DNA of 64,000 nt, taken from Candidatus Uhrbacteria bacterium (lineage in GTDB: Bacteria > Patescibacteriota > Patescibacteriia > UBA9934). Under the pieces are notes generated by a model that was given only the letters and a program-made list of their open reading frames with translations, had not been told where the DNA came from and made no database searches. The stretch lies in contig CALRCK010000001.1 in the NCBI GenBank assembly GCA_943354605.1, forward strand, positions 84,936 through 148,935. The letters run 5' to 3'. The number at the start of each line of letters is the position of its first letter. Within the stretch, counting starts at the first letter, position 1. A program made the position numbers and the translations under genes. Shown one piece after another: positions 1-41,743 of the stretch.

Positions 1-765
1 AAGATCGACACTGCAGGAAAAATCACGCAGTCCGCCGTTGGTATGGGAACATCGGAGAATGTGGAGCGCGCACCGGACATTCTTTCCGTTCTCATGATGC
101 AGAATGGCGTAGAAATGGTGGACGATCGCGGTCGTGTGACATTTAACGATGCGCCAAAAGGATCCGGAAATGCCACGCCGCCTGGTTTGGGTGCGGTGCA
201 GTTCTATACAGATTTCGCGAACCCAACAAAGGAGGTGTATACGTGGAACGACACGATGCAGTCGTCGCTCGACGCATTTGTGAACGGTCAGACGGCGATG
301 TTCTTGGGATATAGTTACCACTTGCCGATCATCCGTACACTTGCACCAAAACTGAATGTTGCGGTTGCTGCATTGCCGCAGATTAGTACGGCAGACACCA
401 CGCAGCAGGTGAACTACGGAAATTATTGGGCAGAAGGTGTGTCGAAAGATTCTGCAAATCAGGATTACGCATGGAATTTTGTGTTGTTTGCAACGAACGA
501 AGACAATGTCACGAGCTATCTTTCCGATGCGAAGAAACCAACGGCCCTGCGATCGCTCATTGCAAGTCAGTTGAACGACGAGGATCTTGGCGTGTTCGCG
601 TCGCAGTTGTTAACCGCAAAAACCTGGTATCGCGGGCTCGATGTGGACGCAGAAGAGGCGGCAATGAACCAACTCATCGATGATTACTTGGCAAACACAT
701 ATGGCGACGATCCGCAGAAGGCTGTAGATAACGCGGCGCGTGTGGTGTCGCAAACGTATCTCTAA
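1..765 (+). CDS. C-terminal part of an extracellular solute-binding protein (ABC transporter SBP family 1-like); 5' end lies outside the window
   Basis: The reading frame is open from position 1 with no stop, and the stop is at 763-765. The soluble sequence (…AMFLGYSYHLPII…KTWYRG…) resembles MalE-type SBP C-terminal lobes. This is an assignment by eye. Confidence 0.4.
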   Translation, partial: KIDTAGKITQSAVGMGTSENVERAPDILSVLMMQNGVEMVDDRGRVTFNDAPKGSGNATPPGLGAVQFYTDFANPTKEVYTWNDTMQSSLDAFVNGQTAMFLGYSYHLPIIRTLAPKLNVAVAALPQISTADTTQQVNYGNYWAEGVSKDSANQDYAWNFVLFATNEDNVTSYLSDAKKPTALRSLIASQLNDEDLGVFASQLLTAKTWYRGLDVDAEEAAMNQLIDDYLANTYGDDPQKAVDNAARVVSQTYL

Positions 766-797
766 ACGCCATTCAGCGCGTGTTATACTTGTTCTAT

Positions 798-1361
798 ATG
801 TTTCGCGCGCTTAAGATTGCCGTTCTTGGTGTGATCCTCTCAACGTCTTTTGGTATTTTTGTGCCAGCCGTTGATGTGCGTGCTGCAGATCTTGGTGCGC
901 AGTACACGGAGATCAATTCATCAGGAACGTCTTCGCAGGGGCTTATTTTTGCAGGAATCTGTCCTAGCTCTACGGATCCAACAACCGGGCTCAATCACTG
1001 CACGGAATGTCGCGACCACGGAAACTGTACGCTCTCCGATGTGCTGCAGGTGTTCGTGAACCTTTCCACGTTCATTCTTGGCATCAGCGGAACCGCGGTG
1101 CTGTTCGTCTTCGTTTATGGTGGGTTTAAGTGGGTGTTTTCCCGTGGGGATTCACACTGGATTACCGAAGGAAAGGACGCTATTACCGCGGCAATTATTG
1201 GACTTTGTATTATCTTTGGCGCGTACGTTGCGATTAACTTTATTGTTTCTGGTCTCACCACAAAGGGGGGCGCGACGCCATCATCCGGAAAGCTCGAAGA
1301 TACGGTGAATCAAAGTGTGACGGGCGGCACAGGAGCGACCGGAGTTTTTACTACTGAATAA
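798..1361 (+). CDS. pilin-like small membrane protein A (TrbC/VirB2-like candidate) with a Cys-rich insert
   Basis: ORF 780..1361, with the likely start at MFRALKIAVLGV. It has an N-terminal hydrophobic leader, a CPSSTDPTTGLNHCTECRDHGNC segment, and then the conserved module VYGGFKWVFSRGDS…GKDAI flanked by two hydrophobic helices. Confidence 0.45.
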   Translation: MFRALKIAVLGVILSTSFGIFVPAVDVRAADLGAQYTEINSSGTSSQGLIFAGICPSSTDPTTGLNHCTECRDHGNCTLSDVLQVFVNLSTFILGISGTAVLFVFVYGGFKWVFSRGDSHWITEGKDAITAAIIGLCIIFGAYVAINFIVSGLTTKGGATPSSGKLEDTVNQSVTGGTGATGVFTTE

Positions 1362-1367
1362 TGGTAT

Positions 1368-1736
1368 ATGAAGAAGATTTTTCGATACGCGATTCTTGCA
1401 TCAATTGTGCTCCTCCCATTTGCTGCGCATGTTGCGCTCGCAGCAACATCAACGTCGTCGGTGACATTGATCAATCCCCTTGGCGACGAGGCTCGTGATG
1501 TTCGCGTACTTTTTGGTCGAGTCATTTCCGCGGCACTATCGATCGTGGGTGGACTTGCATTGTTGATGTTCGTTTATGGCGGCTTGCTCTGGATGACATC
1601 GCGCGGTGAATCGAAACAGGTTACGAAAGGGAAAGATACAATTACCTGGGCTACGCTTGGACTGGTCATTATCTTTGCGTCGTACACGCTGGTGAATGCA
1701 TTGATTTCCGGAATCACATCCGGAAATGCCACGTAA
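1368..1736 (+). CDS. pilin-like small membrane protein B
   Basis: The protein has a signal-peptide-like N-terminus (ILASIVLLPFAAHVALA), then VYGGLLWMTSRGESKQVTKGKDTI between two hydrophobic helices. Confidence 0.5.
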   Translation: MKKIFRYAILASIVLLPFAAHVALAATSTSSVTLINPLGDEARDVRVLFGRVISAALSIVGGLALLMFVYGGLLWMTSRGESKQVTKGKDTITWATLGLVIIFASYTLVNALISGITSGNAT

Positions 1737-1781
1737 GAAAATGGCGTGATATACTATTCTCAACAATTATTCTTCTCCCGT

Positions 1782-2183
1782 ATGATGAAATCTCTCGTCC
1801 GTTTCGCGATGAGTGTGGTACTCGGCCTGGCTATTGCGCTTCCGTTCGTACATATCGGTGCTGTTCATGCGGCATCTGGTCAGCTTGAGGCAACAGATTT
1901 ACTCGGGACGGACTTTGGTGACGCAACCGGTCTTGGTCAGGGCGATCTCACGACAACGATCGGTTCGTTGATCCGTGTCGCACTTGGATTCCTTGGCGTT
2001 GTTGCGGTGGTGATTATTCTCTTGGGTGGATTTAAGTGGATGACGGCTGGCGGAAGTGACGAAAAGGTTGGCGAAGCAAAGAAGCTCATCATCGCCGGTA
2101 TCATCGGTTTGGCGATTATTCTCTCGGCATACGCTATTGCATCGTTCGTTATCAGCTCGATTGTTGGTGCGGCAGCAGGATAA
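1782..2183 (+). CDS. pilin-like small membrane protein C
   Basis: ORF 1746..2183 with the probable start at MMKSLVRF. It has an N-terminal signal-like helix and the module LLGGFKWMTAGGSDEKVGEAKKLII plus a C-terminal helix. Confidence 0.5.
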   Translation: MMKSLVRFAMSVVLGLAIALPFVHIGAVHAASGQLEATDLLGTDFGDATGLGQGDLTTTIGSLIRVALGFLGVVAVVIILLGGFKWMTAGGSDEKVGEAKKLIIAGIIGLAIILSAYAIASFVISSIVGAAAG

Positions 2184-2238
2184 TCGATTCGACGTTGTCT
2201 CATGACGCTCGCCCCGAAGAATATTCGGGGCCTGCACT

Positions 2239-2589
2239 ATGCGAGAACTGTTGGCGCTGACAACAATAGACGGATCAACAACGGGACTCTCTTCAACGGG
2301 AACCGCGGCGTTTGGTTCAACGTGGGTTCGCACGCAGAGCGCAACGTCGCTGTCGTATTTCATCGGCCACAACATCATTCAGCCAATTTTTGGCTTGGTG
2401 GGATTGGCATTTTTCGTGCTTGCCGTCTATGCCGGCGTGTTGTGGATGACGGCGCAGGGGGATTCGAAGAAGGTGGACAAAGCAAAAGATATTTTGGTGT
2501 CGGCAACGGTGGGATTGGTGATTATTGTTGCATCGTACGTGCTGACGAACGCAATTTTGAGTGCCGTGACGTCCGGAACGGTAACCTAG
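2239..2589 (+). CDS. pilin-like small membrane protein D
   Basis: A hydrophilic, Thr/Ser-rich N-terminus is followed by VYAGVLWMTAQGDSKKVDKAKDILV between two hydrophobic helices. Confidence 0.5.
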   Translation: MRELLALTTIDGSTTGLSSTGTAAFGSTWVRTQSATSLSYFIGHNIIQPIFGLVGLAFFVLAVYAGVLWMTAQGDSKKVDKAKDILVSATVGLVIIVASYVLTNAILSAVTSGTVT

Positions 2590-2596
2590 TGCCGAT

Positions 2597-2941
2597 ATGA
2601 TCCGACTTCTTGCTGCGGCAACTGCGCCCTTCAATGCTGATCCACTTTCAAATGCTGGTGCGGCGGCATACGGTGGCACCGTGCCTTCGACCACCCTTTT
2701 TTCCCTGATCAACAGCATTATCACTGCGATATTCAGCGTTCTTGGCCTCATATTCCTTTTCCTTACGCTCTACGCGGGGTATTTATGGATGACGGCGATG
2801 GGGGATTCAAAGAAAGTGACGCGAGCAAAGGATATGCTGTCGCAGGCGGTCATCGGGCTCATCATTGTTGTACTCTCGTACGGAATTTCCTTCTTCGTGG
2901 TCGATCTTATTGGGACCGCTGGAGGATTCGGCGGGATATAA
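2597..2941 (+). CDS. pilin-like small membrane protein E
   Basis: It carries the same module (LYAGYLWMTAMGDSKKVTRAKDML) between two hydrophobic helices. Confidence 0.5.
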   Translation: MIRLLAAATAPFNADPLSNAGAAAYGGTVPSTTLFSLINSIITAIFSVLGLIFLFLTLYAGYLWMTAMGDSKKVTRAKDMLSQAVIGLIIVVLSYGISFFVVDLIGTAGGFGGI

Positions 2942-2953
2942 ACGCTCGCATTT

Positions 2954-3066
2954 GGCCCATTTTCGACTCAGGCCTTCGGAAACTTCTTCAACGTACCGAG
3001 AAGTACGCCTCAGAAGCTTTCCTCGCCCTTCATCGAAACTGGTCTCAAATGAGAGCGTTTATCTCG
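2954..3066. repeat. ~112-nt repeat family R1, copy 1 (forward orientation)
   Basis: This copy aligns along its length with the reverse complements of 16151-16264 and 26825-26936. Shared blocks include GCCCATTTTCG…AACGTACCGAGAAGTACGCCTC…CGAAACTGGTCT.AAATGAGA. It contains a hairpin CGTAC-n6-GTACG. Confidence 0.6.
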
Positions 3067-3132
3067 GGCAATCATCCACAGCGAGTATTTTCTCAACGTG
3101 ATACACTATTCACATAATATTTTGTCCATCGT

Positions 3133-3516
3133 ATGTCGAAGCTCAAGAACATTCTCATCGGCGCAGCGCTCGTAGCACTGCCATTCGGTGCAGCATTGAG
3201 AATCCCAGTAGTACACGCATCGCCAGATCTCACCACGAATCTTTCCGACGTGAATGCTGACGCATCGCTTGGATCGGAGGACCTTACCGCAACCATCGGT
3301 AAGCTGATCTCTGCATTGCTCAGCGTGCTTGGTGTGATTTTCTTGCTTCTCATCATTTGGGCAGGTTTCACCTGGATGACCGCACAGGGAGACTCGAAGA
3401 AGGTGGACAAAGCAAAGGACATTCTCATCACATCTGTTGTTGGTCTGATCATCTTGCTCTCGGCATACGCCATCAGCACGTTCGTCATCGACCAGTTGGC
3501 GACAGCTACGGGATAG
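3133..3516 (+). CDS. pilin-like small membrane protein F
   Basis: It has a signal-like N-terminus, then IWAGFTWMTAQGDSKKVDKAKDILI between two hydrophobic helices. That core is near-identical to D. Confidence 0.55.
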   Translation: MSKLKNILIGAALVALPFGAALRIPVVHASPDLTTNLSDVNADASLGSEDLTATIGKLISALLSVLGVIFLLLIIWAGFTWMTAQGDSKKVDKAKDILITSVVGLIILLSAYAISTFVIDQLATATG

Positions 3517-3534: not shown

Positions 3535-3562
3535 GAAAAGACGACCCGCATGGGTCGTTTTT
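3535..3562 (+). terminator. rho-independent terminator after the pilin-like array
   Basis: The sequence is AAAAGACGACCCGCATGGGTCGTTTTTT, a stem-loop followed by a T-run. Confidence 0.6.
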
Positions 3563-3659
3563 TCGTTTGAAAAGCGAGAGACCCCGGAATCCTTTCGGAC
3601 GCCGGGGTCTCCGTTGCGTGGGTCACGTCACCGTCACCCGAACCTCGTCGCGCGTCCCC

Positions 3660-5609
3660 TCAGTTGCAGGGGTACGAGGTGTCGTTCACCTTGTCGCACT
3701 GCGCGCGGCCGCCGTAGGCTTCGAGGGCTTCCGCCTTCTTCTCCGCCTTCGTCTTGGCTCGCGGCTGCCTGGCCGCGGGCTTCGACCCCGACGTCGCGCC
3801 GCTGCCGCTGCCAACCGCGTTTTCCGCGTAGTCGAGCACCTTGGAGCCGCCATTGCTGACGACCCCGGCCGCGCGCGTGGCGCCGTGGCTCATCGACGTT
3901 TCCGTCTCCGAGATCCACTGCGCGCCGAAGATGCGAACGACGATGAACGCCGCGAGCACCCCGGCCGTGACAACGCGCAGCGCGTTGTACCCGTACTGCA
4001 GGTTGAGGATGTCCTGCTTCTCGATCTCGGCGCCGAGCTTCCCCGCGTACGAGCCGTACACCTTCATCGTGGCGCCACGCTTCAGGTACCCGTACGCAAT
4101 GGCGAGGATCGCGATGAACGTGATGCCGCCGATGCGCCAGCTCTGCGGCGTGTTGAGCGCGAGCGCGAGGGTGAGAGGGATCCACGCGAGCACGATCGCG
4201 GAAGCGACCGTGGCACTGATGTTCACGAGGAAGTTGGTTTTGGCCAGCTCCTTCGACAGCGCGTCCACGTGTTCCTTCTCCATCCGGATGATGCTCTTGA
4301 TGAACGCCGGGATGGCGCCCACCGTCTGCCCACCCTTCTGGAGGAGGTTGATGCTCACGAAGTCGAAGGTCACGATGACGAGGAGGCTCACCCAGTAGGC
4401 GAACCAGTCCACCGTCGGCGTGAAGATCGCCGTGATCACCCACACGAGGGTGAGCGCCATCGGCGCCGCGTAGAAGCCGAGGAGCACGCCCACCACCTGC
4501 ACCGCGCCGGAGACGATCCAGCCGAAGGCCATCATGAGCGCCGAGACGCCCAAGATGGTCACGGTGGACCCCCAGGCGAAGCCCGGGAGCCAGTCCTGGT
4601 GCCAGTTTCCGATCCACAGCGTGATGATGCCGTAGATGATGAGCGCGCCGACGACTGCCACCGAACCCTTGCTCACGTTGGCGGCCGTGCGGATGGCCGC
4701 CTGCGCCTTCACGAACGCGCTGCTCGGCTGGAGGCCTGCGAACAGGTGCAGCCGGTCGAGCATGTCCATGCCGCTGGCGACGGCGTTGGTGCCCTGGTTG
4801 CGATCCGCCTGGCCGACGAGGAGGAACTCGAACGCCGGGATCATCCGGCGCACGAAGTTCTCCGCGGAGCGCCGCCAGCCCTCGAGGTTCGGGCCGCTCT
4901 GGCACCCGTGGTTCTCGAAGTCGCGGATCTCCCCCACGAACTCCACGGCGGCATCGAAGTCCGGGCCCGAGAGCCAGTTCTTGATGTCGTCCGCGTTGTC
5001 GCGGAGGGTGTTGAGGAACCCCACGCCGGCCACCGCCGCCTCGCCTTCCAGCTCGGCAACGATGTCGGTGCCGGGCGTGGCTTCGATCCGCATGAGGCGG
5101 AACATGTAGAGGAGGACGAGCTGCTGGGTGTCGGAGTACCCGGCGCCTGCGGTTGCTCCGGAGAGCGCGCGCTGGACGCGGGAGTACGACGCCACCGGAA
5201 CAGCTGCCGGGGTGGGGGTGGTTGCGGGAGAGGCGGTTGCGGGGGTGGCCATGAGGGCTCCGATTCGGGGGTTGCGGGAAAAATTCCGCCAGTGCGCGAC
5301 GACGTCGGCACGGGCTTCTTCGGTGGTCTTGCCGGTCACGCCGCGCAGCATGCGCGACGTCGGCGGGATGGTTTCCACGAATTCGCCCAGCAGGGACAGC
5401 ACACCGCCACGGTTCTGCAACCGCTGAGCGATGAACAGGATGGCCGGGCTGGCGATGTTCGGGATGCTGGCGTAGAGGTCGAAGATGACCCCCACGAATC
5501 CCTCGAGGTTGTCGGACCCACGGATGCGGGCCACGATTTCGTCGGGGAGGCGCTGCTCTCCGTCTTCGGTGAGGGCACGGATGAGGCTTTGGAAGTTGGA
5601 ATCGCTCAT
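3660..5609 (-). CDS. large polytopic membrane protein in GC-rich block 1 (~330-aa soluble N-terminal region plus ~7-8 TM helices), function unknown
   Basis: This is the long minus-strand ORF 3660..5777, with the likely start at MSDSNFQSL (ATG at 5607-5609). The sequence is coherent, with clear hydrophobic helices. The overlapping plus-strand 690-aa ORF and the other-frame minus-strand 669-aa ORF are Arg/Pro/Gly-rich artefacts of high GC. Confidence 0.5.
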   Translation of the reverse strand: MSDSNFQSLIRALTEDGEQRLPDEIVARIRGSDNLEGFVGVIFDLYASIPNIASPAILFIAQRLQNRGGVLSLLGEFVETIPPTSRMLRGVTGKTTEEARADVVAHWRNFSRNPRIGALMATPATASPATTPTPAAVPVASYSRVQRALSGATAGAGYSDTQQLVLLYMFRLMRIEATPGTDIVAELEGEAAVAGVGFLNTLRDNADDIKNWLSGPDFDAAVEFVGEIRDFENHGCQSGPNLEGWRRSAENFVRRMIPAFEFLLVGQADRNQGTNAVASGMDMLDRLHLFAGLQPSSAFVKAQAAIRTAANVSKGSVAVVGALIIYGIITLWIGNWHQDWLPGFAWGSTVTILGVSALMMAFGWIVSGAVQVVGVLLGFYAAPMALTLVWVITAIFTPTVDWFAYWVSLLVIVTFDFVSINLLQKGGQTVGAIPAFIKSIIRMEKEHVDALSKELAKTNFLVNISATVASAIVLAWIPLTLALALNTPQSWRIGGITFIAILAIAYGYLKRGATMKVYGSYAGKLGAEIEKQDILNLQYGYNALRVVTAGVLAAFIVVRIFGAQWISETETSMSHGATRAAGVVSNGGSKVLDYAENAVGSGSGATSGSKPAARQPRAKTKAEKKAEALEAYGGRAQCDKVNDTSYPCN

Positions 5610-5639
5610 GGCGAATTCTCCGGGGCTGTGATGAATTGA

Positions 5640-5830
5640 ACAATTGACGCGAGTTTTGAAAGATGCGGAAAATAAGGGGTTTCCCCAGGATTTCCGGACT
5701 GGGGAGAATAGCAGAAAAATGCAGAAAAGTAAAGGGAAAGGAGGGTTTTGGGGAAAATGAGGTTTCCCCAGGGCCACCTTTACTTTTCCCTGTTTTTCTG
5801 CTATAGTAAAGGGTTAGATTCCTTCAAAAC
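5640..5830. promoter_or_regulatory. divergent intergenic control region with direct and inverted repeats
   Basis: GGTTTCCCCAGG occurs twice (about 5678 and 5762). GCAGAAAAGTAAAGGG faces an imperfect inverted copy CCTTTACTTTTCCCTGTTTTTCTGC. The region is locally AT-rich and lies between two divergently oriented GC-rich genes. Confidence 0.3.
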
Positions 5831-5897
5831 TCGTGTACATTGTTCGATTCACCCGCCGATGCCGCAAAGGATCGGTTTCTCTCGCCAGAGGTCTCTC

Positions 5898-6602
5898 ATG
5901 CTCCTGTCCCTCATCCTGTCTTCCCTCATCTCCGCGGCCCGTGCCGAGGAGCCCACCATCAACGTCACGGTCGTGGCCCCCGCGGTCACGGACGAGGCGG
6001 CCGATGCCACCGAGATCCCGACCAGCCAGTACGGCGTGTCGCTCGTCATCGGCAGCAACTGCAGCGTCAAGGTCACCGGCAAGAACCTGTCCGCCAAAAA
6101 GGCGGGGCAGCTCGCCGGCGAGATCGAGGCGGCCAAGGGCAAGTGCATGGCCAACAAGGCCCGCCGCGACGACAAGGCTCGCGCCGACCAGGTCGCCACC
6201 GCCCGCTCGAAGTCCGAGGACACCCTCATCTCGGCCGGCGCGGATGCGGTCAAGAATGGCGGCAGCGTGGACTACAGCTCCAAGGCCAACGGCGATCTCC
6301 ACTTCGTGGCGGGTCCGGCGGCCGAGTGGAGCGCGTACGGCACCGCGGTCAGCAACGGCAACGGCTACGTCCCCGGCATGTCGGTGGGCTACGTCGATCC
6401 GCAGATGGCGATGCTCTACCGCCTTGGCGCCGGCCAGGCCGCCTTCGCCGCACACCCCGTCGTCCCCGGCGCGGTGATGCCGATGCAGCCGGCCGCACAG
6501 CCCGCGACGACCACCGACAACAGCGCCGCCCTCGGTGAGTGCCAGCAGGCGCTCAAGGCCAAGGGCAAGCTGCTCGAGTCCTGCGAGAACAGCGGCTCGT
6601 AG
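5898..6602 (+). CDS. secreted hypothetical protein (GC-rich block 1)
   Basis: ORF 5748..6602 with the probable start at MLLSLILSSLISAARA, which looks like a signal peptide. It is Ala/Gly/Lys-rich and I recognise no domain. Confidence 0.45.
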   Translation: MLLSLILSSLISAARAEEPTINVTVVAPAVTDEAADATEIPTSQYGVSLVIGSNCSVKVTGKNLSAKKAGQLAGEIEAAKGKCMANKARRDDKARADQVATARSKSEDTLISAGADAVKNGGSVDYSSKANGDLHFVAGPAAEWSAYGTAVSNGNGYVPGMSVGYVDPQMAMLYRLGAGQAAFAAHPVVPGAVMPMQPAAQPATTTDNSAALGECQQALKAKGKLLESCENSGS

Positions 6603-6748: not shown

Positions 6749-7372
6749 ATGTCCTTGTTCCTCTTCCTCGTTTCTTCCTTCGCTCTCGCCGCCGCTGGTG
6801 GCCCCATGGCCCCGCGTACGGTGGCCCATCCGTACCTCCCCAACGTGGAGCTCGCGATGGACGCGTCGAACTGCTCGGCGGACACGAACTGCGTCACCGT
6901 GGTGAACACGGGAAGCACGTTCCTCGTGCCGCAGAACAGCAACGCACCGGGCGGGATGCGCGTGGTGGACCCGGAGGGGTACACGAACGGCATCTACAAG
7001 GACGGCCTTCCGGTGTTCGTCGGCTTCACGGTCGATCCCACCACCGGCGAGACTATCCCGATGCTCAACGGCACGTTCGTGTCGGCCATCGAACCCTGCA
7101 TCCGCAGCGGCTCCTGGCCCACGACCGCGCTCCGCGTGCGCACCGCCAAGGAGATCACGGTCACCGCGGAGTCGGTGGTGTTCTACCCGGAGCCGGGCCC
7201 GGTCACCAAGGCGTTCGATGTCCAGACCGGGACGATCATCCGGTACCACCCCGGCTACGGCGAGACCGTGGGTCAGGTGGACCCGATCAAGAGCGTTCTC
7301 CGGAACGCGATCGGCGAGCCGACCACCTACGCCTGGCGCATCGCGCTGGGCAACGGTCGCTGCCAGAGCTAG
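6749..7372 (+). CDS. secreted hypothetical protein with 4 Cys (GC-rich block 1)
   Basis: The N-terminus MSLFLFLVSSFALAAAGG looks like a signal peptide. No domain recognised. Confidence 0.45.
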   Translation: MSLFLFLVSSFALAAAGGPMAPRTVAHPYLPNVELAMDASNCSADTNCVTVVNTGSTFLVPQNSNAPGGMRVVDPEGYTNGIYKDGLPVFVGFTVDPTTGETIPMLNGTFVSAIEPCIRSGSWPTTALRVRTAKEITVTAESVVFYPEPGPVTKAFDVQTGTIIRYHPGYGETVGQVDPIKSVLRNAIGEPTTYAWRIALGNGRCQS

Positions 7373-7494: not shown

Positions 7495-7578
7495 CAGTCA
7501 TGTTGAGCGCAGCGAAACATCTCCGCAGGGAGTGCTGGTAACCTACGGGAGATTCTTCACTTCGTTCAGAATGACTGA
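7495..7578. repeat. palindromic hairpin repeat (family R2), copy A
   Basis: GTCATGTTGAGCGCAGCGAAACATCTCC … GGGAGATTCTTCACTTCGTTCAGAATGAC form imperfect inverted arms. It sits between convergent gene ends. Confidence 0.55.
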
Positions 7579-7585
7579 TCGGATT

Positions 7586-8917
7586 CTATACGTGAGTTTT
7601 GCGCGATACCAACATTCCTACCAAACAGAATGCGGTGAGTATCACTAAATCATTTTTGAAAAATGGGACATCGACCAAGCCATGAATCGTCATTGTGAGT
7701 ATTGCGGCAGCGAAGGCAAGGACCAGCGCGTCGTCTTTGCGTCGCCATGCGGTTCGCGTAAGAAGGAACGCTCCAGTGATCAGGCCAATAAGGCCAATAA
7801 GACCCATTTCTGACCACACATTCAGCATGATGTTGTGCGGATACTGAAAAATTTCGTAGAACGTCGCGTCGTGATACGGCGCAAGCGCTGCAGGGTAGCC
7901 GTTCAGGCCGGCCCCAAGGAACGGGCGATCTGCAAGCATGGTGAGCGTTTCACTCCATTGCGCGCGGCGAACAAGGCCGGACGAATCGTGGAGTGCAATT
8001 TTTTGAATGATCGACGGCGCGAAGAGCGACACCGCACATGCTCCGGTAATGGTTGCGGCGATGATGGCGTATTTGATTCGTCCAGCAATCGGCGCGAGGA
8101 GTCCGACGATCACGAGCGCAACGGGGATTGCGACAAGAGCGGCTTCTGTTTTTGCTGCAACAATTCCGCCGAGCATGAGGAAGATTGTAATGATTTCAGA
8201 TACACCCAAGCCCCCTCCAACTCCCCCATAAATGGCGGAGAGAAGCCCGGTGATTCCTCTCCCCCCATTTATGGGGGGAGTCGGAGGGGGGCTTTTACGC
8301 ACGGAGAGGATTCGATTGGAAAGCTGCACCATCGCCATCGTCACGATTGGCGCAATAAAGAGTCCGACAGCATTTGGATAATCATACAGCGATGTTGCGC
8401 GGTTCTCGATGGCCCAAGCGTCCGGAATACCAACGTGGGTGAGGATCTGCAGAATAGCGAGTATACCAACGGCGGTTGCCGATGCAATGAGCACGTTGAT
8501 CATACGTTCGACGTCGTCACGATCAGTCATAACCGCTCTGACCACGAACGCGAGGAGCATTGGTTCAATGATGTACGCCTTCAGAATGCCGAGCGCAGAA
8601 AGCGTGTCTGGTGCGATGATGGTAGAAATTATTCCGGCGATGACGACGAGTGCCATCGGAATCCGATACCAGCCAAACGATTCCCAAATCGTAGAGACGG
8701 CCCGGCGGGCCGTTTCCGACCGTAATCGAATCACCGCATTCGCGATCGTAATTAAAAGGAATCCTTCAAGCAGCGTGGAAGGAATCGGTCCAATAGTGAA
8801 TCGAACGAGATACGTCGGCAGGAGCGCGAAGAGGAGAACAATGCCGAGTTTTTGATTTCGCCACGAAAGAACAGCAAAGGCGGCGATTACGGCGGTGACG
8901 AGGATGGGGAAGATCAT
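7586..8917 (-). CDS. polytopic membrane protein, O-antigen ligase/polymerase-like (Wzy_C-type) candidate
   Basis: It is 443 aa with about 10-12 hydrophobic helices and sits adjacent to the Wzx-like flippase. The family assignment is by architecture only. Confidence 0.4.
   Translation of the reverse strand: MIFPILVTAVIAAFAVLSWRNQKLGIVLLFALLPTYLVRFTIGPIPSTLLEGFLLITIANAVIRLRSETARRAVSTIWESFGWYRIPMALVVIAGIISTIIAPDTLSALGILKAYIIEPMLLAFVVRAVMTDRDDVERMINVLIASATAVGILAILQILTHVGIPDAWAIENRATSLYDYPNAVGLFIAPIVTMAMVQLSNRILSVRKSPPPTPPINGGRGITGLLSAIYGGVGGGLGVSEIITIFLMLGGIVAAKTEAALVAIPVALVIVGLLAPIAGRIKYAIIAATITGACAVSLFAPSIIQKIALHDSSGLVRRAQWSETLTMLADRPFLGAGLNGYPAALAPYHDATFYEIFQYPHNIMLNVWSEMGLIGLIGLITGAFLLTRTAWRRKDDALVLAFAAAILTMTIHGLVDVPFFKNDLVILTAFCLVGMLVSRKTHV
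8208..8294. repeat. 87-nt near-perfect GC-rich palindrome embedded in-frame in the ligase-like CDS
   Basis: The arms are AAGCCCCCTCCAACTCCCCCATAAATGG and CCATTTATGGGGGGAGTCGGAGGGGGGCTT. The right arm (8257-8294) matches ileS 62597-62634 at 37 of 38 positions. In the protein it encodes …SPPPTPPINGGRGITGLLSAIYGGVGGGLG…. Confidence 0.6.
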
Positions 8918-8935: not shown

Positions 8936-9018
8936 TCGTGTCATTCTGAGCGAAGCGAAGAATCTTCGTCGTGACCAACACGTAACCCACGAGAGATTCT
9001 TCGCTTCGCTCAGAATGA
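8936..9018. repeat. palindromic hairpin repeat (family R2), copy B
   Basis: GTCATTCTGAGCGAAGCGAAGAATCTTCG … CGAGAGATTCTTCGCTTCGCTCAGAATGAC is a near-perfect inverted repeat, 3' of the flippase gene. Confidence 0.6.
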
Positions 9019-9027
9019 CTGAAGAAG

Positions 9028-10485
9028 CTACGTCACGATTCCCGGATCGGGTCGGAATAATCGGAGCAGCGATTTTGGCGACGGGCCACCGAGTGCGGCG
9101 AGGGTGGTGATGTATAGAACCGTTCCCATCGGAACAGAGACAAATGCGCTTATGTCGCGAACGGCGTACAGACCGAATGCCATGACAAGCGATGCTCCAA
9201 GACACTTGGTGAAGATTTTGAGGTCCGGCTTCCATTCCGTGTGTCGAATAACGACAACGGCGGCGATGGTGCCAATGAGCGTTTCGGCAAACAACGACAT
9301 TGCCGCAGCGGCCCACATGCCAAACCGAGGAATAAAGATTGCGTAGCCGATGAGTGTGAGCGTTGCCACGAATGCGTAGGCAAACGTCATCACACGCTGT
9401 TTGCCGATTGCGACAACCGTGTAGGAGAAGAGGGAACCGAGGAACACGGCGGTGGCAGTGGGGCCGAGAATCGCGAGCACCTGTCCGGCCGGACCAAGGG
9501 AAGATTTGATGAGGGTCATTACGGCAACGCCACACAATATGCTCCCAAATGCGAATGGAACGCCGAGCATCACGAGCATATCGAAGCCGTCCTGCATGCG
9601 CTTTGCGAAGAGCGGGCGGTTGTGTGCGGCCCATGCGGCAACAAGAAGGGGGAGGAGTAGGCCCATGAGCGTTGTTGGCACCGTCGTCACCACGTCGATG
9701 ACTTTATACGCGCCGCCGTAATAGCCGATTTCCGTATCGGACCGGCCAAAGAACCACATAAAGAGCACGTCACCCTTTAAGTAGAGCAGGTTAAAGAAGA
9801 TCGAAATGCCGATCGGCCAGCTTTTTTCGAAAATGGTTTTCGCGATGCGTTTGTCGAAGCTAAACGACATTGGAATGTGGGTTCTCACGCTGCGGAGCAT
9901 CACAACGACGTGAACGATCCCGCCAACCACAAACGCGAATGCAGCGGCACCAAGCCCAAGATGCCAGAGCCATACGGCAAACACGCCAAGAAACGCAACA
10001 AATCGGTTCGCGGTTTCGGCGAGCGTTGCTTGGGTGAGCATGAGGCGTTTTTGAAACACTCCCACGAACACCTGGGCGATGGAGCTAAAGAAGAACGATC
10101 CTGCAAAGAAGAGGATTGCGAGGCGTTCATCCGGCGTCGTCGGCAAGAACATCGCCGAAATCGGTGCGATGCTTAAAAAGACAAATGCGCTGATCATGCG
10201 AACAGAGAAAATGGTTCCGAGGATTTTCTTTTCGTCTGCGCCCGGTTCCGAAATCATCTGCGCCGTGGTGAGCGTTAGCCCGAAGTCGACGAGGATCGCG
10301 AACACTGAGGCGTAGGTCTGTGCCTTGGTGAGTGCGCCATAACCAGAATCATCAAGTGTGTGAATGAGAAGCCAAAAGGTGACGAGTCCAAGAATGGTGC
10401 CAACAATCTTGCCGATCACTTGAATCACGGTGTTTTTCGCGAGCGCGCTGCGTTCGGTGGACATAGTTAGTGCAAATGATAGCAA
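9028..10485 (-). CDS. MOP-superfamily polysaccharide flippase (Wzx-like)
   Basis: It is 485 aa with about 12-14 TM helices, and its size and topology are typical of Wzx/MurJ-type transporters. An alternative start is at 10464. Confidence 0.5.
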   Translation of the reverse strand: MLSFALTMSTERSALAKNTVIQVIGKIVGTILGLVTFWLLIHTLDDSGYGALTKAQTYASVFAILVDFGLTLTTAQMISEPGADEKKILGTIFSVRMISAFVFLSIAPISAMFLPTTPDERLAILFFAGSFFFSSIAQVFVGVFQKRLMLTQATLAETANRFVAFLGVFAVWLWHLGLGAAAFAFVVGGIVHVVVMLRSVRTHIPMSFSFDKRIAKTIFEKSWPIGISIFFNLLYLKGDVLFMWFFGRSDTEIGYYGGAYKVIDVVTTVPTTLMGLLLPLLVAAWAAHNRPLFAKRMQDGFDMLVMLGVPFAFGSILCGVAVMTLIKSSLGPAGQVLAILGPTATAVFLGSLFSYTVVAIGKQRVMTFAYAFVATLTLIGYAIFIPRFGMWAAAAMSLFAETLIGTIAAVVVIRHTEWKPDLKIFTKCLGASLVMAFGLYAVRDISAFVSVPMGTVLYITTLAALGGPSPKSLLRLFRPDPGIVT

Positions 10486-16150: not shown

Positions 16151-16264
16151 AGATAAGAACTTTCTCATTTCAGACCAGTTTCGGTGCGCAAGGAGCAAAG
16201 TTCGCGAGGCGTACTTCTCGGTACGTTGAGCGAATTTGCGACGCAGCAAGCCGAAAATGGGCGA
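16151..16264. repeat. repeat family R1, copy 2 (reverse orientation), immediately 5' of tRNA-Leu
   Basis: Its reverse complement aligns with 2954-3066, including the AACGTACCGAGAAGTACGCCTC hairpin block. Confidence 0.6.
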
Positions 16265-16283
16265 AATGACGAAGTTCTTGTGA

Positions 16284-18618: not shown

Positions 18619-19230
18619 TTACGATTTCAGAATGAGTCGCGTGTATCCTCGCTCAAGGCGAGAAATACGTTCCTCGTGATCGCGTTGAACCGGGACGAGG
18701 GGCTCGAGAATGGTGGAGATTGAATTGACTTCAGTTGCGATGGTTTCGAGAAGTTCATCGTGATGATCGAACCGCTGTTCATGACGCCGCAATGTTTCTT
18801 GGACGTCATTCACTTCAGTCGCGACAGCCTCGAGAAGTCCGTCATGGTGATCGAATCGTTGCTCATGGCGTCGCAATGTTTCTTGGACGCCGTTCACTTC
18901 TGTTGCGACAGTCTCGATGAGATCGTCGAGGTGATCAATTTTTTGGTCGAGATGATCAAATTGTTGATCGATCGCAGTGAACCGTCCGTCGAACCCATTG
19001 AGTCGCATATCAATACCATCAAGCCGCGTATCAATGCCCTCGAATCGCGCATCTGCCGCGTCGAACCTTGCATCCGTCGCGTCAAATCGCGTATCGATGC
19101 CGTCGAATCGCACGTGGATTCCATCAAATCGTTTTTCATGGCCATCGAATCGGTTTCGGACTTCATCGCGAAACTCTGTGAGAAGTTCCACCATTTCTTT
19201 TTTGGTGATTGGCGTTTGGTCGAACGTCAT
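18619..19230 (-). CDS. tandem-repeat protein (eight-residue xRFDGIDT repeats plus ~22-residue ETLRRHEQRFDHHDxLLExxATEVN repeats)
   Basis: It is 203 aa. The repeats are also visible at the DNA level: 24-nt units at about 18980-19130 and ~66-nt units at about 18730-18900. A terminator hairpin lies at 18585-18612. Confidence 0.45.
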   Translation of the reverse strand: MTFDQTPITKKEMVELLTEFRDEVRNRFDGHEKRFDGIHVRFDGIDTRFDATDARFDAADARFEGIDTRLDGIDMRLNGFDGRFTAIDQQFDHLDQKIDHLDDLIETVATEVNGVQETLRRHEQRFDHHDGLLEAVATEVNDVQETLRRHEQRFDHHDELLETIATEVNSISTILEPLVPVQRDHEERISRLERGYTRLILKS

Positions 19231-24471: not shown

Positions 24472-24590
24472 AGGAGGGTAATCCCGACGCGGCAATCCAG
24501 GCTCAGTCATTCCGAGCGTAGGCGAGGAATCTCCGCAGGTGATCCGTGATAACCTGCGAGAGATTCTTCACTTCGTTCAGAATGACTGAG
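24472..24590. repeat. palindromic hairpin repeat (family R2), copy C, with an extra upstream half-unit
   Basis: CAGTCATTCCGAGCGTAGGCGAGGAATCTCCGCAGG … CTGCGAGAGATTCTTCACTTCGTTCAGAATGACTGAG. It shares about 60 nt with copy A. Confidence 0.55.
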
Positions 24591-26824: not shown

Positions 26825-26936
26825 CGCACATATTTGGTGATAGTTTCGGTGCGCAACGAGCAAAGCTTTTGAAACGTACTTCATGTGTACGTTGAAAAAG
26901 TTTGCGAAGGTGCAAGCCGAAAATAGCCCAAATAGG
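26825..26936. repeat. repeat family R1, copy 3 (reverse orientation), immediately 5' of 23S rRNA
   Basis: Its reverse complement aligns with copies 1 and 2 (GGCTATTTTCGGCTTGC…AACGTACACATGAAGTACG…TTGCGCACCGAAACT). Confidence 0.55.
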
Positions 26937-26964: not shown

Positions 26965-29995
<3,031 letters not shown>

Positions 29996-30071
29996 ATTCA
30001 CTGATTGTTCTCGGAAACGAGTAACAATACGTTCTTCACTATTTGCAGAAACTGATCGAAAGGATCCTCCG

Positions 30072-30182
30072 TCTTGGTGGCACTTCCGGCAGGGCAACAC
30101 CCGTTCCCATCCCGAACACGGTCGTTAAGCCTGCACGGGCCGATGGTAGTCAAGGTGGCGAGAGTAGGTGGCCGCCAGGACA
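30072..30182 (+). rRNA. rrf: 5S ribosomal RNA
   Basis: …CCGTTCCCATCCCGAACACGG…GCCGATGGTAGT…GAGAGTAGGTGGCCGCCAGG is a typical 5S core. The ends are approximate. Confidence 0.85.
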
Positions 30183-40945: not shown

Positions 40946-41743
40946 TTACTTGATCGACGACCAATCCAGAGATGAAAGGAGAGTATTCCATTCACTGTCG
41001 GTAACGTTGCTTTGCCGTAAAAGTTCAACAACGTTGGTTTGCGTGTGGTATTGGAGGAGTGTGAATGGCCCCGAGAACTCATCGATTCCGCCAGGGTCGA
41101 AAGAGCCTGTAACGGTGACTAATGTTCCTGCGCCTTTTGTAACACTTGTTACCGTAACATTGCTGAGTTGGAGATTTTTCGCGAGATTTGCTTTGATCGT
41201 TGTTTCATCCGTCGATCCCAACGGATATCGCGGCGCAACGGTCGTCTCAACAATGCCAAGGTTCGCAATGACGTCTCCAGCCATTGAGAATTGAGAGGGG
41301 AAGCCTACACCACCGCACTCGTTGCAGTTCATATAGATCCCTGTTGTTCCTGCGAAAGTTGCCCGTGGTCGAACTGGATCTTTTGCATTGTTTTCGAAGC
41401 CGCTCCCGGTCCAGTTGATCGGTAATGTCAGCGAAGGGAGATAGTCGCCACCAGAGTAAGAGAGCCCTTTGCTCGTTTCCGTTGTTGCTGCCACAGGGGT
41501 CGTCGCAGGCTCTGCACTACACGCTTCCGAAATTCGGGTCAGGTTTGTGGTGATGCCGTTGATCGTGCCGTTTTGGCAGGCGGCGGAAAGGTCGGTAGCA
41601 GAAAGGGTGTTGTCCGATCCTTTTGTGAGCAAAATTCCTACAATTACGATTGAAAACACCGCAATCCACGTGAGTAAAATGAGCATCCAGGTGTGGACTT
41701 TGCTGGTTGGTGTGTGATTTATGTCTGGACTCATTGGTTCCAT
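40946..41743 (-). CDS. membrane-anchored extracellular hypothetical protein
   Basis: It has an N-terminal TM (WMLILLTWIAVFSIVIVGILL) and a Thr/Ser/Asn-rich ectodomain. Confidence 0.35.
   Translation of the reverse strand: MEPMSPDINHTPTSKVHTWMLILLTWIAVFSIVIVGILLTKGSDNTLSATDLSAACQNGTINGITTNLTRISEACSAEPATTPVAATTETSKGLSYSGGDYLPSLTLPINWTGSGFENNAKDPVRPRATFAGTTGIYMNCNECGGVGFPSQFSMAGDVIANLGIVETTVAPRYPLGSTDETTIKANLAKNLQLSNVTVTSVTKGAGTLVTVTGSFDPGGIDEFSGPFTLLQYHTQTNVVELLRQSNVTDSEWNTLLSSLDWSSIK

What the first reader, a model, noticed from the sequence alone, without database searches (positions are those of the whole stretch)
780..3516. Tandem array of six paralogous pilin-like (TrbC/VirB2-type) genes with a conserved two-helix core and divergent N-termini
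Six consecutive same-strand ORFs of 114-193 aa all end in the same module: a hydrophobic helix, then (V/I/L)(Y/W)(G/A)G(F/L/V/Y)xWM(T)(A/S)xG(D/G/E)S(K/E/H)(K/Q)V(D/T/G)(K/E/R)(A/G)K(D/K)(I/L/T/M)(L/I), then a second hydrophobic helix. Four of them (A, B, C, F) begin with signal-peptide-like leaders, and two (D, E) have hydrophilic Ser/Thr-rich N-termini. Paralogue A carries a Cys-rich insert CPSSTDPTTGLNHCTECRDHGNC. This architecture (leader plus helix-loop-helix with a short charged loop) is that of conjugative/type IV secretion pilins, and as far as I recall it also fits the T4SS_pilin family reported in Gram-positive and CPR genomes. No VirB4, VirB6 or VirD4 gene is in the window, and the array is bounded by an SBP gene and a GC-rich island. 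A sixfold expansion with conserved cores and variable exposed regions suggests filament-subunit diversification, for example minor versus major subunits or variation. It may also be a pilus-like appendage that is not part of a classical T4SS. One copy of repeat R1 sits inside the array between E and F.
Basis: partly seen in the sequence, partly recalled or inferred. Interest (0 to 1): 0.7.

Follow-up and report, generated by a model that had tools for sequence, protein, structure and literature searches.

The report
Six-gene VirB2-like pilin array, Patescibacteria
Six neighbouring genes in an uncultured ultra-small (Uhrbacteria-like) bacterium encode small two-helix membrane proteins of the type IV secretion pilin family; such pilin arrays are already described in this phylum, but here the array sits next to a sugar-binding lipoprotein gene and not next to the secretion machinery.

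Summary
Six same-strand ORFs (798-3516) all exceed Pfam's cut-off for PF18895 T4SS_pilin, and each has two hydrophobic helices joined by a Lys-rich loop. The contig is a Patescibacteria (Uhrbacteria-like, ABY1) chromosome fragment. Tandem arrays of 2-11 VirB2-like pilins in this phylum were published in 2025, and an essential six-pilin array in Southlakia epibionticum in 2023. The kind is therefore known.

New here:
- The six paralogues have 1:1 positional orthologues in relatives, and an A-B-C-(D/E/F)n order is conserved in 39 of 54 complete arrays.
- All six are under purifying selection. F and C are the most constrained, and each follows a conserved extended -10-like motif. This argues for differentiated subunits, not antigenic variation.
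- The upstream SBP gene is not a mere boundary. A sugar-binding SBP_bac_1 lipoprotein gene, usually preceded by an NTP_transferase gene, abuts the array in 49 of 54 informative loci.
- No VirB4-like gene lies in the window or within 10 kb of any of 80 related loci. However, four genomes carrying such arrays are listed as VirB4-positive.

Pilus formation is inferred, not shown. Interest is moderate.

The parts
1..765 (+). 3' part (240 codons) of an SBP_bac_1 solute-binding lipoprotein gene, cut by the contig end. It is a conserved upstream partner of the array.
   Evidence: Full-length orthologues (L010 2032-3435, 467 aa) hit PF01547 at 3e-29, carry a lipobox (LLTTGAGC), and match sugar or oligosaccharide ABC binding proteins in the PDB. 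A homologue lies directly upstream of the array in 49 of 54 informative loci.
781..789 (+). Extended -10-like motif TGTTATACT, 8 nt before the ATG of A
   Evidence: TGNTAYACT occurs 8 times in the window against 1.0 expected. Three of the eight copies precede A, C and F. The copy before A is conserved in L010.
798..1361 (+). Pilin A (187 aa from ATG 798): leader, Cys-rich extracellular insert (nt 960-1028), two-helix core, 35-aa C-terminal tail
   Evidence: PF18895 33.6 bits, TrbC 21.7 bits. Orthologues are first in the array in 39 of 54 loci. The Cys motif and tail motif are conserved.
1368..1736 (+). Pilin B (122 aa), with leader
   Evidence: PF18895 43.7 bits. Positional orthologues are 66-90% identical.
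1747..1755 (+). Extended -10-like motif TGATATACT, 26 nt before the ATG of C
   Evidence: It sits at -34/-35 (-37 in L012) from the C start in all seven relatives checked.
1782..2183 (+). Pilin C (133 aa from ATG 1782), with leader. It is the second most conserved paralogue.
   Evidence: PF18895 39.2 bits. Orthologues are 76-96% identical, dN/dS is 0.03-0.10, and dS is lower than in A, B, D and E.
2207..2235 (+). Conserved stem-loop between C and D, ending 4 nt before the ATG of D
   Evidence: RNAalifold on four orthologous spacers gives 11 pairs, 3 of them with compensatory changes.
2239..2589 (+). Pilin D (116 aa). It has no hydrophobic leader in this lineage.
   Evidence: PF18895 38.8 bits. 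The leader core is deleted in the window, L010, L011 and L013, and is intact in L003, L012 and L014-L017.
2597..2941 (+). Pilin E (114 aa), leaderless in all close relatives
   Evidence: PF18895 38.6 bits. E is leaderless in L003-L015, while the position-5 gene has a leader in the more distant L016 and L017.
2942..3068 (-). R1: an inserted structured repeat of about 125 nt (long imperfect hairpin). It is not part of the ancestral array.
   Evidence: It is absent from the 61-nt E-F spacer of L003, L004 and L006. In L010 it is inserted at a different site and orientation in the same spacer. The consensus fold has 41 pairs, 14 of them compensatory, across the three window copies.
3099..3107 (+). 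Extended -10-like motif TGATACACT, 25 nt before the ATG of F
   Evidence: It is invariant at -33/-34 in six of seven relatives; in L010 the R1 insertion separates it from F.
3133..3516 (+). Pilin F (127 aa), with leader. It is the most conserved paralogue and the candidate major subunit.
   Evidence: PF18895 41.1 bits and NCBIfam NF045849 39.9 bits against a cut-off of 40. It is 100% identical in protein to L003 at 90.5% nucleotide identity. dN/dS is 0.015-0.12 and dS is 0.48-0.59, against 1.2-2.0 in A, B, D and E. The AlphaFold model shows a helical hairpin at residues 51-82 and 88-126 with pLDDT above 90.
3540..3565 (+). Intrinsic-terminator-like hairpin (GACGACCC-GCAT-GGGTCGT followed by a T run) closing the array. 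It is shared with the convergent gene at 3660-5777.
   Evidence: Sequence read. The scan reports the same stem on the minus strand.

Best explanation
The six genes encode differentiated members of the VirB2-like 'T4SS_pilin' family in a Patescibacteria (Uhrbacteria-like, ABY1-class) chromosome.

Shown here:
- Each protein is a small bitopic-hairpin membrane protein. Two hydrophobic helices are joined by a short Lys-rich loop.
- Four of the six have a cleavable Sec-type leader.
- The six copies are ancient, positionally fixed paralogues under purifying selection.
- They appear to form three transcription units (A-B, C-D-E and F), each behind a conserved extended -10-like motif.
- The array is the distal part of a conserved module: NTP_transferase, then a sugar-binding SBP lipoprotein, then A-B-C-(D/E/F)n.

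Inferred:
- The proteins insert with the N and C termini outside and the basic loop in the cytoplasm. They accumulate as a membrane pool.
- As with VirB2/TrbC pilins, they are extracted and polymerised by a VirB4-type T4SS encoded elsewhere in the genome. The product would be a heteromeric pilus-like structure or channel lining that contacts the host cell.
- F, and probably C, would be the abundant structural subunits. A (Cys-rich ectodomain and C-terminal tail), B, D and E would be minor or specialised subunits.
- The co-encoded surface lipoprotein of the oligosaccharide-binding family may work with the structure in recognising or capturing host glycans. This last step is the least secure.
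For: - Family: 6 of 6 proteins are above the PF18895 cut-off. TrbC/VirB2 is sub-threshold in A, B and F. A mycoplasma-ICE 'pilin-like conjugal transfer protein' model (NF045849) gives E of 1e-4 to 2.5e-10 for B-F. Profile-profile alignment to seven annotated VirB2/TrbC proteins encoded next to VirB1-like and VirB3 genes gives E 1.9e-4 and probability 47%, with TM1, loop and TM2 in register, including the G..WM motif.
- Architecture and topology: two hydrophobic segments, a basic loop and acidic or neutral termini. The AF2 hairpin has pLDDT above 90. In the same species as the window's closest relative, the same leader-plus-pilin module is fused N-terminally to 600-aa and >2850-aa Big_5/TIG surface proteins, which puts the C terminus outside.
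- Differentiated subunits: 1:1 positional orthology. The A..B..C order holds in 39 of 54 complete arrays from Uhrbacteria, Magasanikbacteria and other ABY1-type MAGs, and six genes is the modal size. dN/dS is 0.015-0.16. F and C have the lowest dN and dS. Conserved promoter-like motifs lie before A, C and F only, a conserved hairpin follows C, and a terminator follows F.
- Module: the SBP gene is adjacent in 49 of 54 loci, and an NTP_transferase homologue is present in 44 of 63 loci. SBP-first sampling confirms the layout.
- T4SS elsewhere: the genomes of L037, L045, L078 and L080 are 'VirB4: Yes' in Table S1 of PMC12102498, as are 14 of 16 sampled ABY1 Falkowbacteria.
- Literature: a six-pilin array is essential in S. 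epibionticum and lies inside its T4SS cluster (PMC10633639; PMC12857230).
Against: - No VirB4, VirD4 or VirB6 lies in 64 kb of window. No VirB4-like Walker-A ORF lies within 10 kb of any of 80 related loci.
- The rest of this organism's genome could not be searched.
- PF04956 (TrbC/VirB2) is below its cut-off in every copy. The profile-profile probability is only 47%, and membrane-helix composition can inflate such scores.
- No pilus has been seen on any Patescibacterium by a method tied to these genes. Monoderm T4SSs normally lack pili.
- D and E lack leaders.
- The roles assigned to F and C (major) and to the SBP rest on conservation and gene order only.
Confidence: 0.6

Rival explanations
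1. The proteins are T4SS-independent membrane components. In this reading the two-helix 'T4SS_pilin' module is a membrane anchor or oligomerisation unit. The six small proteins would form a heteromeric membrane platform with the sugar-binding lipoprotein, for example for glycan capture, uptake or surface display, and no VirB4-driven polymerisation would occur.
For: The array is never next to a VirB4-like gene in 80 loci, but is almost always next to an SBP lipoprotein and an NTP_transferase. The same module serves as the N-terminal anchor of giant Big_5/TIG surface proteins. Cell-envelope polysaccharide genes (Wzy_C, Polysacc_synt) recur nearby.
Against: The family is embedded in the T4SS cluster of Saccharibacteria and is essential there. 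It resembles VirB2/TrbC and a mycoplasma ICE conjugation protein. Four genomes with such arrays do encode VirB4. No permease or ATPase that could use the SBP is linked either.
Confidence: 0.2
2. The array is a variation system. The paralogues would be interchangeable alternatives that diversify the exposed surface to evade host defences or broaden host range, as proposed for the VirB2 paralogue arrays of Bartonella and Anaplasma.
For: The N-terminal, presumably exposed, regions differ strongly between paralogues while the core is conserved. The number of D/E/F-type copies varies from 2 to 8 among genomes. PMC12102498 offers this idea.
Against: Each paralogue has a 1:1 orthologue at the same position. 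The A-B-C order is conserved across distant lineages. All copies are under purifying selection, with dN/dS of 0.16 or less. No inverted repeats or switching elements lie in the array. Fixed promoter-like motifs suggest simultaneous expression.
Confidence: 0.1
3. The family assignment is wrong. The proteins would be an unrelated kind of small two-TM protein (holin-like, a cytochrome oxidase small subunit, or PspC-like, as some automatic annotations say), and the Pfam match would reflect hydrophobic composition only.
For: JGI names for homologues are inconsistent ('heme/copper-type cytochrome/quinol oxidase subunit 2', 'phage shock protein PspC'). Weak sub-threshold hits to FixQ, DUF898, DctQ and others appear. 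Helical hairpins are structurally generic.
Against: All six pass a curated cut-off by 7-17 bits, and every other family is far below its own cut-off. The conserved loop motif and invariant G/W positions are sequence-specific, not compositional. An independent NCBIfam conjugation model hits five of the six.
Confidence: 0.05

Closest known systems
Tandem VirB2-like pilin arrays of Patescibacteria (Quinonero-Coronel et al. 2025, PMC12102498): 441 arrays of 2-11 genes in 383 assemblies
   Same: Both are detected by the same Pfam family (PF18895/PF04956), lie on the chromosome and are arranged in tandem. Paralogue identity is low: 26-46% here, against a reported average of 25% and maximum of 54%. 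The phylum is the same.
   Different: That survey was centred on virB4 neighbourhoods, and it found arrays to be most abundant in Microgenomatia and Saccharimonadia. The present array is in an ABY1-type lineage and is not near virB4. It belongs to a conserved NTP_transferase-SBP-array module with a fixed A-B-C-(D/E/F)n order. The paper's main text has no occurrence of 'solute', 'SBP', 'substrate-binding', 'ABC transporter' or 'binding protein', and I saw no mention of gene order in the sections read.
Six-gene pilin cluster in the T4SS locus (SEML1_0006-0019) of Southlakia epibionticum ML1 (Wang et al. 2023, PMC10633639; reviewed in PMC12857230)
   Same: Both have six structurally similar, sequence-divergent VirB2-like pilins in one array in a monoderm epibiont.
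   Different: In ML1 the array lies inside the T4SS cluster and is shown by Tn-seq to be essential. Here nothing is tested experimentally and the array is unlinked from T4SS genes. I could not test orthology between the two six-gene sets.
VirB2/TrbC conjugative pilins of diderm MPF-T systems (for example the Agrobacterium T-pilus subunit)
   Same: Both have a long leader, two hydrophobic helices, a short loop with a G..WM-type motif and a small mature size. Remote sequence similarity is detectable.
   Different: The proteins here are below the PF04956 cut-off. The mature proteins are about 97-156 aa rather than about 70-78. There are six copies instead of one, and no adjacent VirB1, VirB3 or VirB4. 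The organism has no outer membrane. Cyclisation and lipid-bound assembly are untested.
VirB2 paralogue arrays of Bartonella and Anaplasma
   Same: Both are tandem amplifications of VirB2-like genes with divergent exposed parts.
   Different: Those arrays are interpreted as antigenic or host-range variation. Here the orthology and selection pattern point to fixed, non-redundant subunits.
Mbov_0395 / MMCAP2_0565 pilin-like conjugal transfer protein of mycoplasma ICEs (NCBIfam NF045849)
   Same: Both are two-helix proteins of a monoderm conjugation system. B-F match the model over its whole length, and F reaches 39.9 bits against a cut-off of 40.
   Different: All scores are below the equivalog cut-off. 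The mycoplasma protein is single-copy and sits in a mobile element, not in a chromosomal array.

Membership tests
Pfam PF18895 T4SS_pilin | Whole-protein HMM score at or above the curated gathering score (26.6 bits) | tested here: met
   A 33.6, B 43.7, C 39.2, D 38.8, E 38.6, F 41.1 bits. Public precomputed annotation of the same contig agrees.
Pfam PF18895 T4SS_pilin | Two hydrophobic helices joined by a short charged loop | tested here: met
   Hydropathy segments and a Lys-rich loop. The AF2 model of F has helices at 51-82 and 88-126 with pLDDT above 90.
TrbC/VirB2 conjugative pilins (PF04956) | HMM score at or above the gathering score (27.9 bits) | tested here: not met
   A 21.7, B 22.8, F 22.3 bits (E about 1e-4). 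There is no hit in C, D or E.
TrbC/VirB2 conjugative pilins (PF04956) | Detectable homology to bona fide VirB2 proteins encoded beside VirB1/VirB3 | tested here: inconclusive
   hhalign of the family alignment against 7 annotated VirB2/TrbC proteins gives probability 47%, E 1.9e-4 and 57 columns, with the helices in register.
TrbC/VirB2 conjugative pilins (PF04956) | Gene lies in a T4SS operon (next to virB3/virB4 or equivalents) | tested here: not met
   There is no T4SS Pfam family other than the six pilins and no VirB4-like P-loop ORF in the window. None lies within 10 kb in 80 related loci.
TrbC/VirB2 conjugative pilins (PF04956) | A VirB4 ATPase is encoded in the same genome | not testable with these tools
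   Only this 64-kb contig of the organism is available. The published Table S1 lists VirB4 as present in four genomes that carry related arrays (L037, L045, L078, L080).
TrbC/VirB2 conjugative pilins (PF04956) | Cleavable N-terminal leader | tested here: inconclusive
   Leaders with AxA-type sites are present in A, B, C and F, and none is present in D and E. No dedicated signal-peptide predictor was available.
TrbC/VirB2 conjugative pilins (PF04956) | Polymerises into an extracellular filament (with bound phospholipid; cyclised in some systems) | not testable with these tools
   This needs microscopy or biochemistry. A monomer fold search cannot discriminate.
Patescibacteria VirB2-like pilin arrays (PMC12102498) | Two or more pilin genes (PF18895/PF04956 hits), in tandem or separated by one gene, in a Patescibacteria genome, with low mutual identity | tested here: met
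   There are six tandem genes with 26-46% pairwise identity. Homologues and the closest genome records are Patescibacteria or Uhrbacteria.
Type IV pilins (T4P, class III signal peptide) | Prepilin-peptidase motif (G/FTLIE-type) followed by a single N-terminal hydrophobic helix | tested here: not met
   No such motif is present in any of the six sequences. Each has two C-terminal hydrophobic helices instead, and there are no T4P Pfam hits.
Variant VirB2 paralogue arrays (Bartonella/Anaplasma type) | Recent lineage-specific duplication with diversifying evolution of copies | tested here: not met
   1:1 positional orthology is seen across relatives with saturated dS. dN/dS is 0.16 or less for all six.

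The most novel reading that the evidence does not exclude
The array may not be a stray piece of a T4SS. It may be the core of a distinct, deeply conserved surface module of ABY1-class Patescibacteria. The module would consist of a sugar-nucleotide enzyme, an orphan oligosaccharide-binding lipoprotein and an ordered set of VirB2-like subunits: A with a disulfide-rich ectodomain, B, C, and a variable number of D/E/F types. Separately encoded giant adhesins would carry the same pilin module as their anchor. Together these would build a glycan-recognising attachment or uptake organelle for the epibiotic lifestyle, possibly assembled without the classical T4SS ATPase.
Probability: 0.2. Interest if true: 0.75.

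Novelty: new member of a known kind. Interest (0 to 1): 0.4.

Why it matters
Patescibacteria are a large share of uncultured bacterial diversity and depend on host cells. In the one genetically tractable species, the T4SS and its pilin array are essential, but their function is unknown. This locus adds no new kind of gene. It does add testable structure to the problem in four ways.
- The paralogues are fixed, ordered and unequally constrained, which points to a heteromeric assembly with candidate major (F, C) and minor subunits.
- In a whole class (ABY1) the array travels with a sugar-binding lipoprotein and not with VirB4.
- The same pilin module anchors giant surface proteins.
- If the SBP link is functional, it gives a concrete handle (ligand, partner) on what the presumed pilus does at the host surface.

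Tried and rejected
- **Sequence search of the PDB with the family profile.** It gave only summed repeat hits to designed 'Pizza' propellers, each domain being non-significant. I treated these as spurious.
- **dN/dS against L004 and L006.** dS is saturated for most genes. I repeated the analysis with closer relatives.
- **Apparent mosaic in L003.** F is 100% identical in protein while A-E are 63-95% identical, which looked like recombination. F is only 90.5% identical in DNA, so the pattern reflects strong purifying selection.
- **Finding VirB4 in the same organism.** I used a Walker-A screen of all fetched loci and the published VirB4 table as substitutes.
- **Three context look-ups.** Two returned short duplicate contigs and one found no record, so they added little.
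- **The 705-aa neighbour (3660-5777, minus strand) as a possible VirB6-like partner.** It has no Pfam or NCBIfam hit, and it is conserved only in close relatives. It is therefore not part of the conserved module.
- **Type IV (T4P) pilin and holin-like readings.** I rejected both on motif and profile grounds.

Full report
**What is there.** The window opens inside a solute-binding-protein gene that ends at 765. Six + strand ORFs follow at 780-1361, 1368-1736, 1746-2183, 2239-2589, 2597-2941 and 3133-3516. Orthologue alignments and public gene calls place the starts of A and C at ATG 798 and ATG 1782. Aligning the six proteins gives 26-46% pairwise identity. The conserved block is concentrated in the C-terminal 70 residues: a hydrophobic helix, the loop G-x-x-W-M-T-A-x-G-D-S-K-K-V-x-K-A-K-D, and a second hydrophobic helix. 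The loop is conserved enough to appear as a 51-nt direct repeat in B-F. A, B, C and F start with a hydrophobic leader ending in an AxA-type site. D and E do not.

**Family.** All six proteins pass Pfam's curated cut-off for PF18895 T4SS_pilin (33.6-43.7 bits against 26.6). A, B and F also give sub-threshold TrbC/VirB2 hits with E about 1e-4, and every other family is far below its own cut-off. NCBIfam's model for a mycoplasma-ICE 'pilin-like conjugal transfer protein' (NF045849) matches B-F over its full length. F scores 39.9 bits against a cut-off of 40. To test the link to canonical VirB2, I retrieved seven annotated VirB2/TrbC genes, all followed by VirB3 and mostly preceded by a VirB1-type lytic transglycosylase gene, from MPF-T plasmids. 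I compared their alignment with a 36-sequence alignment of this family. hhalign gave E 1.9e-4 and probability 47% over 57 columns, with the mature N-terminus, helix 1, the G..WM motif and helix 2 in register. That is suggestive, not conclusive. An AlphaFold model of F shows the expected helical hairpin at residues 51-82 and 88-126 with pLDDT above 90. Fold searches cannot discriminate such a simple fold, and the PDB holds no sequence relative.

**Organism and prior knowledge.** The window is all but the first 582 bases of ENA contig ERZ27280315 k141_88485, so the array lies at the very edge of the contig. Homologues of F are Patescibacteria or Candidatus Uhrbacteria proteins. The closest species-level genome record is a 'Patescibacteria group bacterium', JBBTSM01, whose F is 99% identical. 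The rest of the window looks like an ordinary Patescibacteria chromosome stretch. It carries RuvB, SpoIID, Wzy_C, Polysacc_synt, a split transketolase and an unlinked 23S-5S rRNA. It carries no T4SS or ABC-transporter family, and RuvB is its only clear P-loop NTPase.

The literature already describes this kind of locus.
- Quinonero-Coronel et al. 2025 report 441 arrays of 2-11 VirB2-like pilin genes in 383 Patescibacteria assemblies, with average identity 25%.
- Wang et al. 2023 found an essential series of pilins inside the T4SS cluster of Southlakia epibionticum.
- A 2025 review counts six pilins in that cluster and raises the possibility of a pilus in a monoderm.

The finding is therefore a new member of a known kind.

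**What the comparison adds: fixed, ordered paralogues.** In close relatives (L003-L007, L010-L017) each window paralogue has one clear orthologue at the same position. Among 54 complete arrays from 80 species-representative loci, 39 begin A..B..C and 39 end with an F-type gene. Six genes is the commonest size, seen in 21 of the 54. The number of D/E/F-type copies varies. All six genes are under purifying selection, with dN/dS of 0.015-0.16.

F is extraordinarily constrained. It is 100% identical in protein to L003 at 90.5% DNA identity. Its dS is 0.48-0.59, against 1.2-2.0 for A, B, D and E. C is intermediate. Flanking genes (SBP, SpoIID) evolve faster than F and C and more slowly than A, D and E. 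This pattern favours non-redundant subunits of one assembly and argues against an antigenic-variation cassette.

**Expression signals.** The motif TGNTAYACT, an extended -10-like sequence, occurs 8 times in the window against 1.0 expected. Three copies sit just upstream of A, C and F. The copies before C and F are conserved at -34/-35 from the start codon in nearly all relatives checked, and nothing similar precedes B, D or E. A stem-loop with compensatory changes separates C from D. A terminator-like hairpin follows F. I infer three units, A-B, C-D-E and F. C and F, the two most conserved genes, each come first after a promoter and are followed by a hairpin. That is the arrangement expected for abundant subunits.

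**The SBP is part of the module.**
- Full-length orthologues of the upstream gene are 460-aa SBP_bac_1 proteins with a lipobox. They are related to sugar and oligosaccharide ABC binding proteins.
- A homologue lies directly upstream, on the same strand, in 49 of 54 informative array loci.
- An NTP_transferase homologue is present in 44 of 63 array loci and lies directly before the SBP in at least 34 of 45.
- Sampling from the SBP side gave the same layout in two further genomes.
- The genes beyond this block differ between lineages.
- No ABC permease or ATPase accompanies the SBP.
- I found no mention of this linkage in the 2025 survey or in full-text searches.

**Where is the T4SS?** No VirB4-like Walker-A ORF lies within 10 kb of any of the 80 loci. 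However, the genomes behind L037, L045, L078 and L080 are marked 'Presence of VirB4: Yes' in Table S1 of the 2025 paper, as are 14 of 16 ABY1 Falkowbacteria in one sampled part of that table. A distal T4SS is therefore plausible for this organism, but I could not verify it.

**Topology.** The loop is Lys-rich and the termini are acidic or neutral. In the genome of the closest relative, and in 15 other loci, two adjacent genes fuse the same leader-plus-pilin module to large C-terminal Big_5/TIG/DUF4215 regions of 609 and more than 2850 aa. This places the pilin C terminus outside the cell. It also shows the module serving as the anchor of surface proteins.

**Conclusion.** Family membership is secure. 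The mechanism is inferred by homology and from one genetic study in another class: membrane-inserted pilins are drawn by a distal VirB4 machine into a heteromeric pilus-like structure, with F and C as major subunits and the SBP as a glycan-binding accessory. The main rival is that the module works as a membrane and surface complex without the T4SS. I rate the variation-cassette reading and a mistaken family assignment as unlikely.

Noticed in passing
window 2942-3068 (-), 16158-16268 (+), 26842-26933 (+); L010 5671-5800; L011 about 9885: Repeat R1 is a structured element of about 115-125 nt that folds into one long imperfect hairpin (41 pairs, 14 compensatory among three copies). Two copies end 16 and about 32 nt before tRNA-Leu(taa) and the 23S rRNA. 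The third is an insertion in the E-F spacer that is absent from L003, L004 and L006. In L010 the element sits at a different site and orientation in the same spacer, flanked by CATAA...CATAA. It behaves like a MITE-like mobile element and has no Rfam match.
   Followed up: partly
window 3660-5777 (-), 5748-6602 (+), 6749-7372 (+); other GC-rich stretches at about 14.8-16.3 kb, 23-24.4 kb and 51-52.5 kb: The three genes just downstream of the array have GC3 of 0.88-0.92, in a genome where GC3 is about 0.5-0.6. The bias opens overlapping 2-kb ORFs in three frames, and public gene callers disagree on the strand. The minus-strand 705-aa polytopic membrane protein is the real frame by codon-position GC. 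Orthologues in relatives keep the high GC3 (0.78-0.91) while the proteins diverge fast (38-45% identity, apparent dN/dS 0.7-0.9). They have no Pfam or NCBIfam hit. Cause unknown.
   Followed up: partly
L020 9953-11782 and 11792-20357 (same MAG as L010); also L018, L025, L026, L029, L033, L043, L053, L060-L062, L064, L072, L074, L077, L084, L088: A second, conserved locus type has two adjacent genes whose products begin with a leader plus a T4SS_pilin module, followed by large extracellular regions (609 aa with Big_5; more than 2850 aa with Big_5, TIG and DUF4215). These look like pilin-anchored giant adhesins. At least four MAGs have both this locus and the small-pilin array.
   Followed up: partly
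window 2239-2300 (start of D): D has lost the hydrophobic core of its leader: MRELLAL-TTID here against MRKLFAVLGLAVLLSMPSLAFAATTID in L012. The deletion is shared by L010, L011 and L013. The gene remains under purifying selection. E is leaderless in a wider clade. Two leader losses in the D/E type suggest these subunits can insert without a cleavable signal.
   Followed up: partly
window 7586-8917 (-), 9028-10485 (-); NTP_transferase upstream of the SBP in L004, L006, L090: A Wzy_C (O-antigen-ligase / PglL-type) gene and a Polysacc_synt flippase gene lie within 10 kb of the array here, and in 17 and 14 of 63 related loci respectively. Together with the NTP_transferase, this raises the untested idea that the Ser/Thr-rich pilin N-termini are O-glycosylated.
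   Followed up: no
window 781, 1747, 3099 (+); 8460, 37391, 41811, 42744, 58779 (-): TGNTAYACT is eightfold over-represented. Where the gene start is clear (A, C, F and the gene ending at 41743) it lies shortly upstream of it; two other copies (8460, 58779) fall inside ORFs as currently delimited. It is probably this organism's extended -10 promoter consensus. The copy before A would give a leaderless or nearly leaderless mRNA.
   Followed up: partly
window 26965-30180: A 23S rRNA gene (3035 nt against a 2925-nt model, so it may carry an insertion) and a 5S rRNA gene have no 16S gene nearby. No 16S rRNA gene was detected in the window.
   Followed up: no
window 7536-7578, 8980-9022, 24547-24589; 8248-8294 and 62588-62634; 18724-18891: Other small repeats are present: a 43-nt family with three copies at 86-100% identity, a 47-nt palindromic pair (CTCTCCCCCCATTTATGGGGGGAG core), and an 84-nt tandem duplication inside an ORF.
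   Followed up: no
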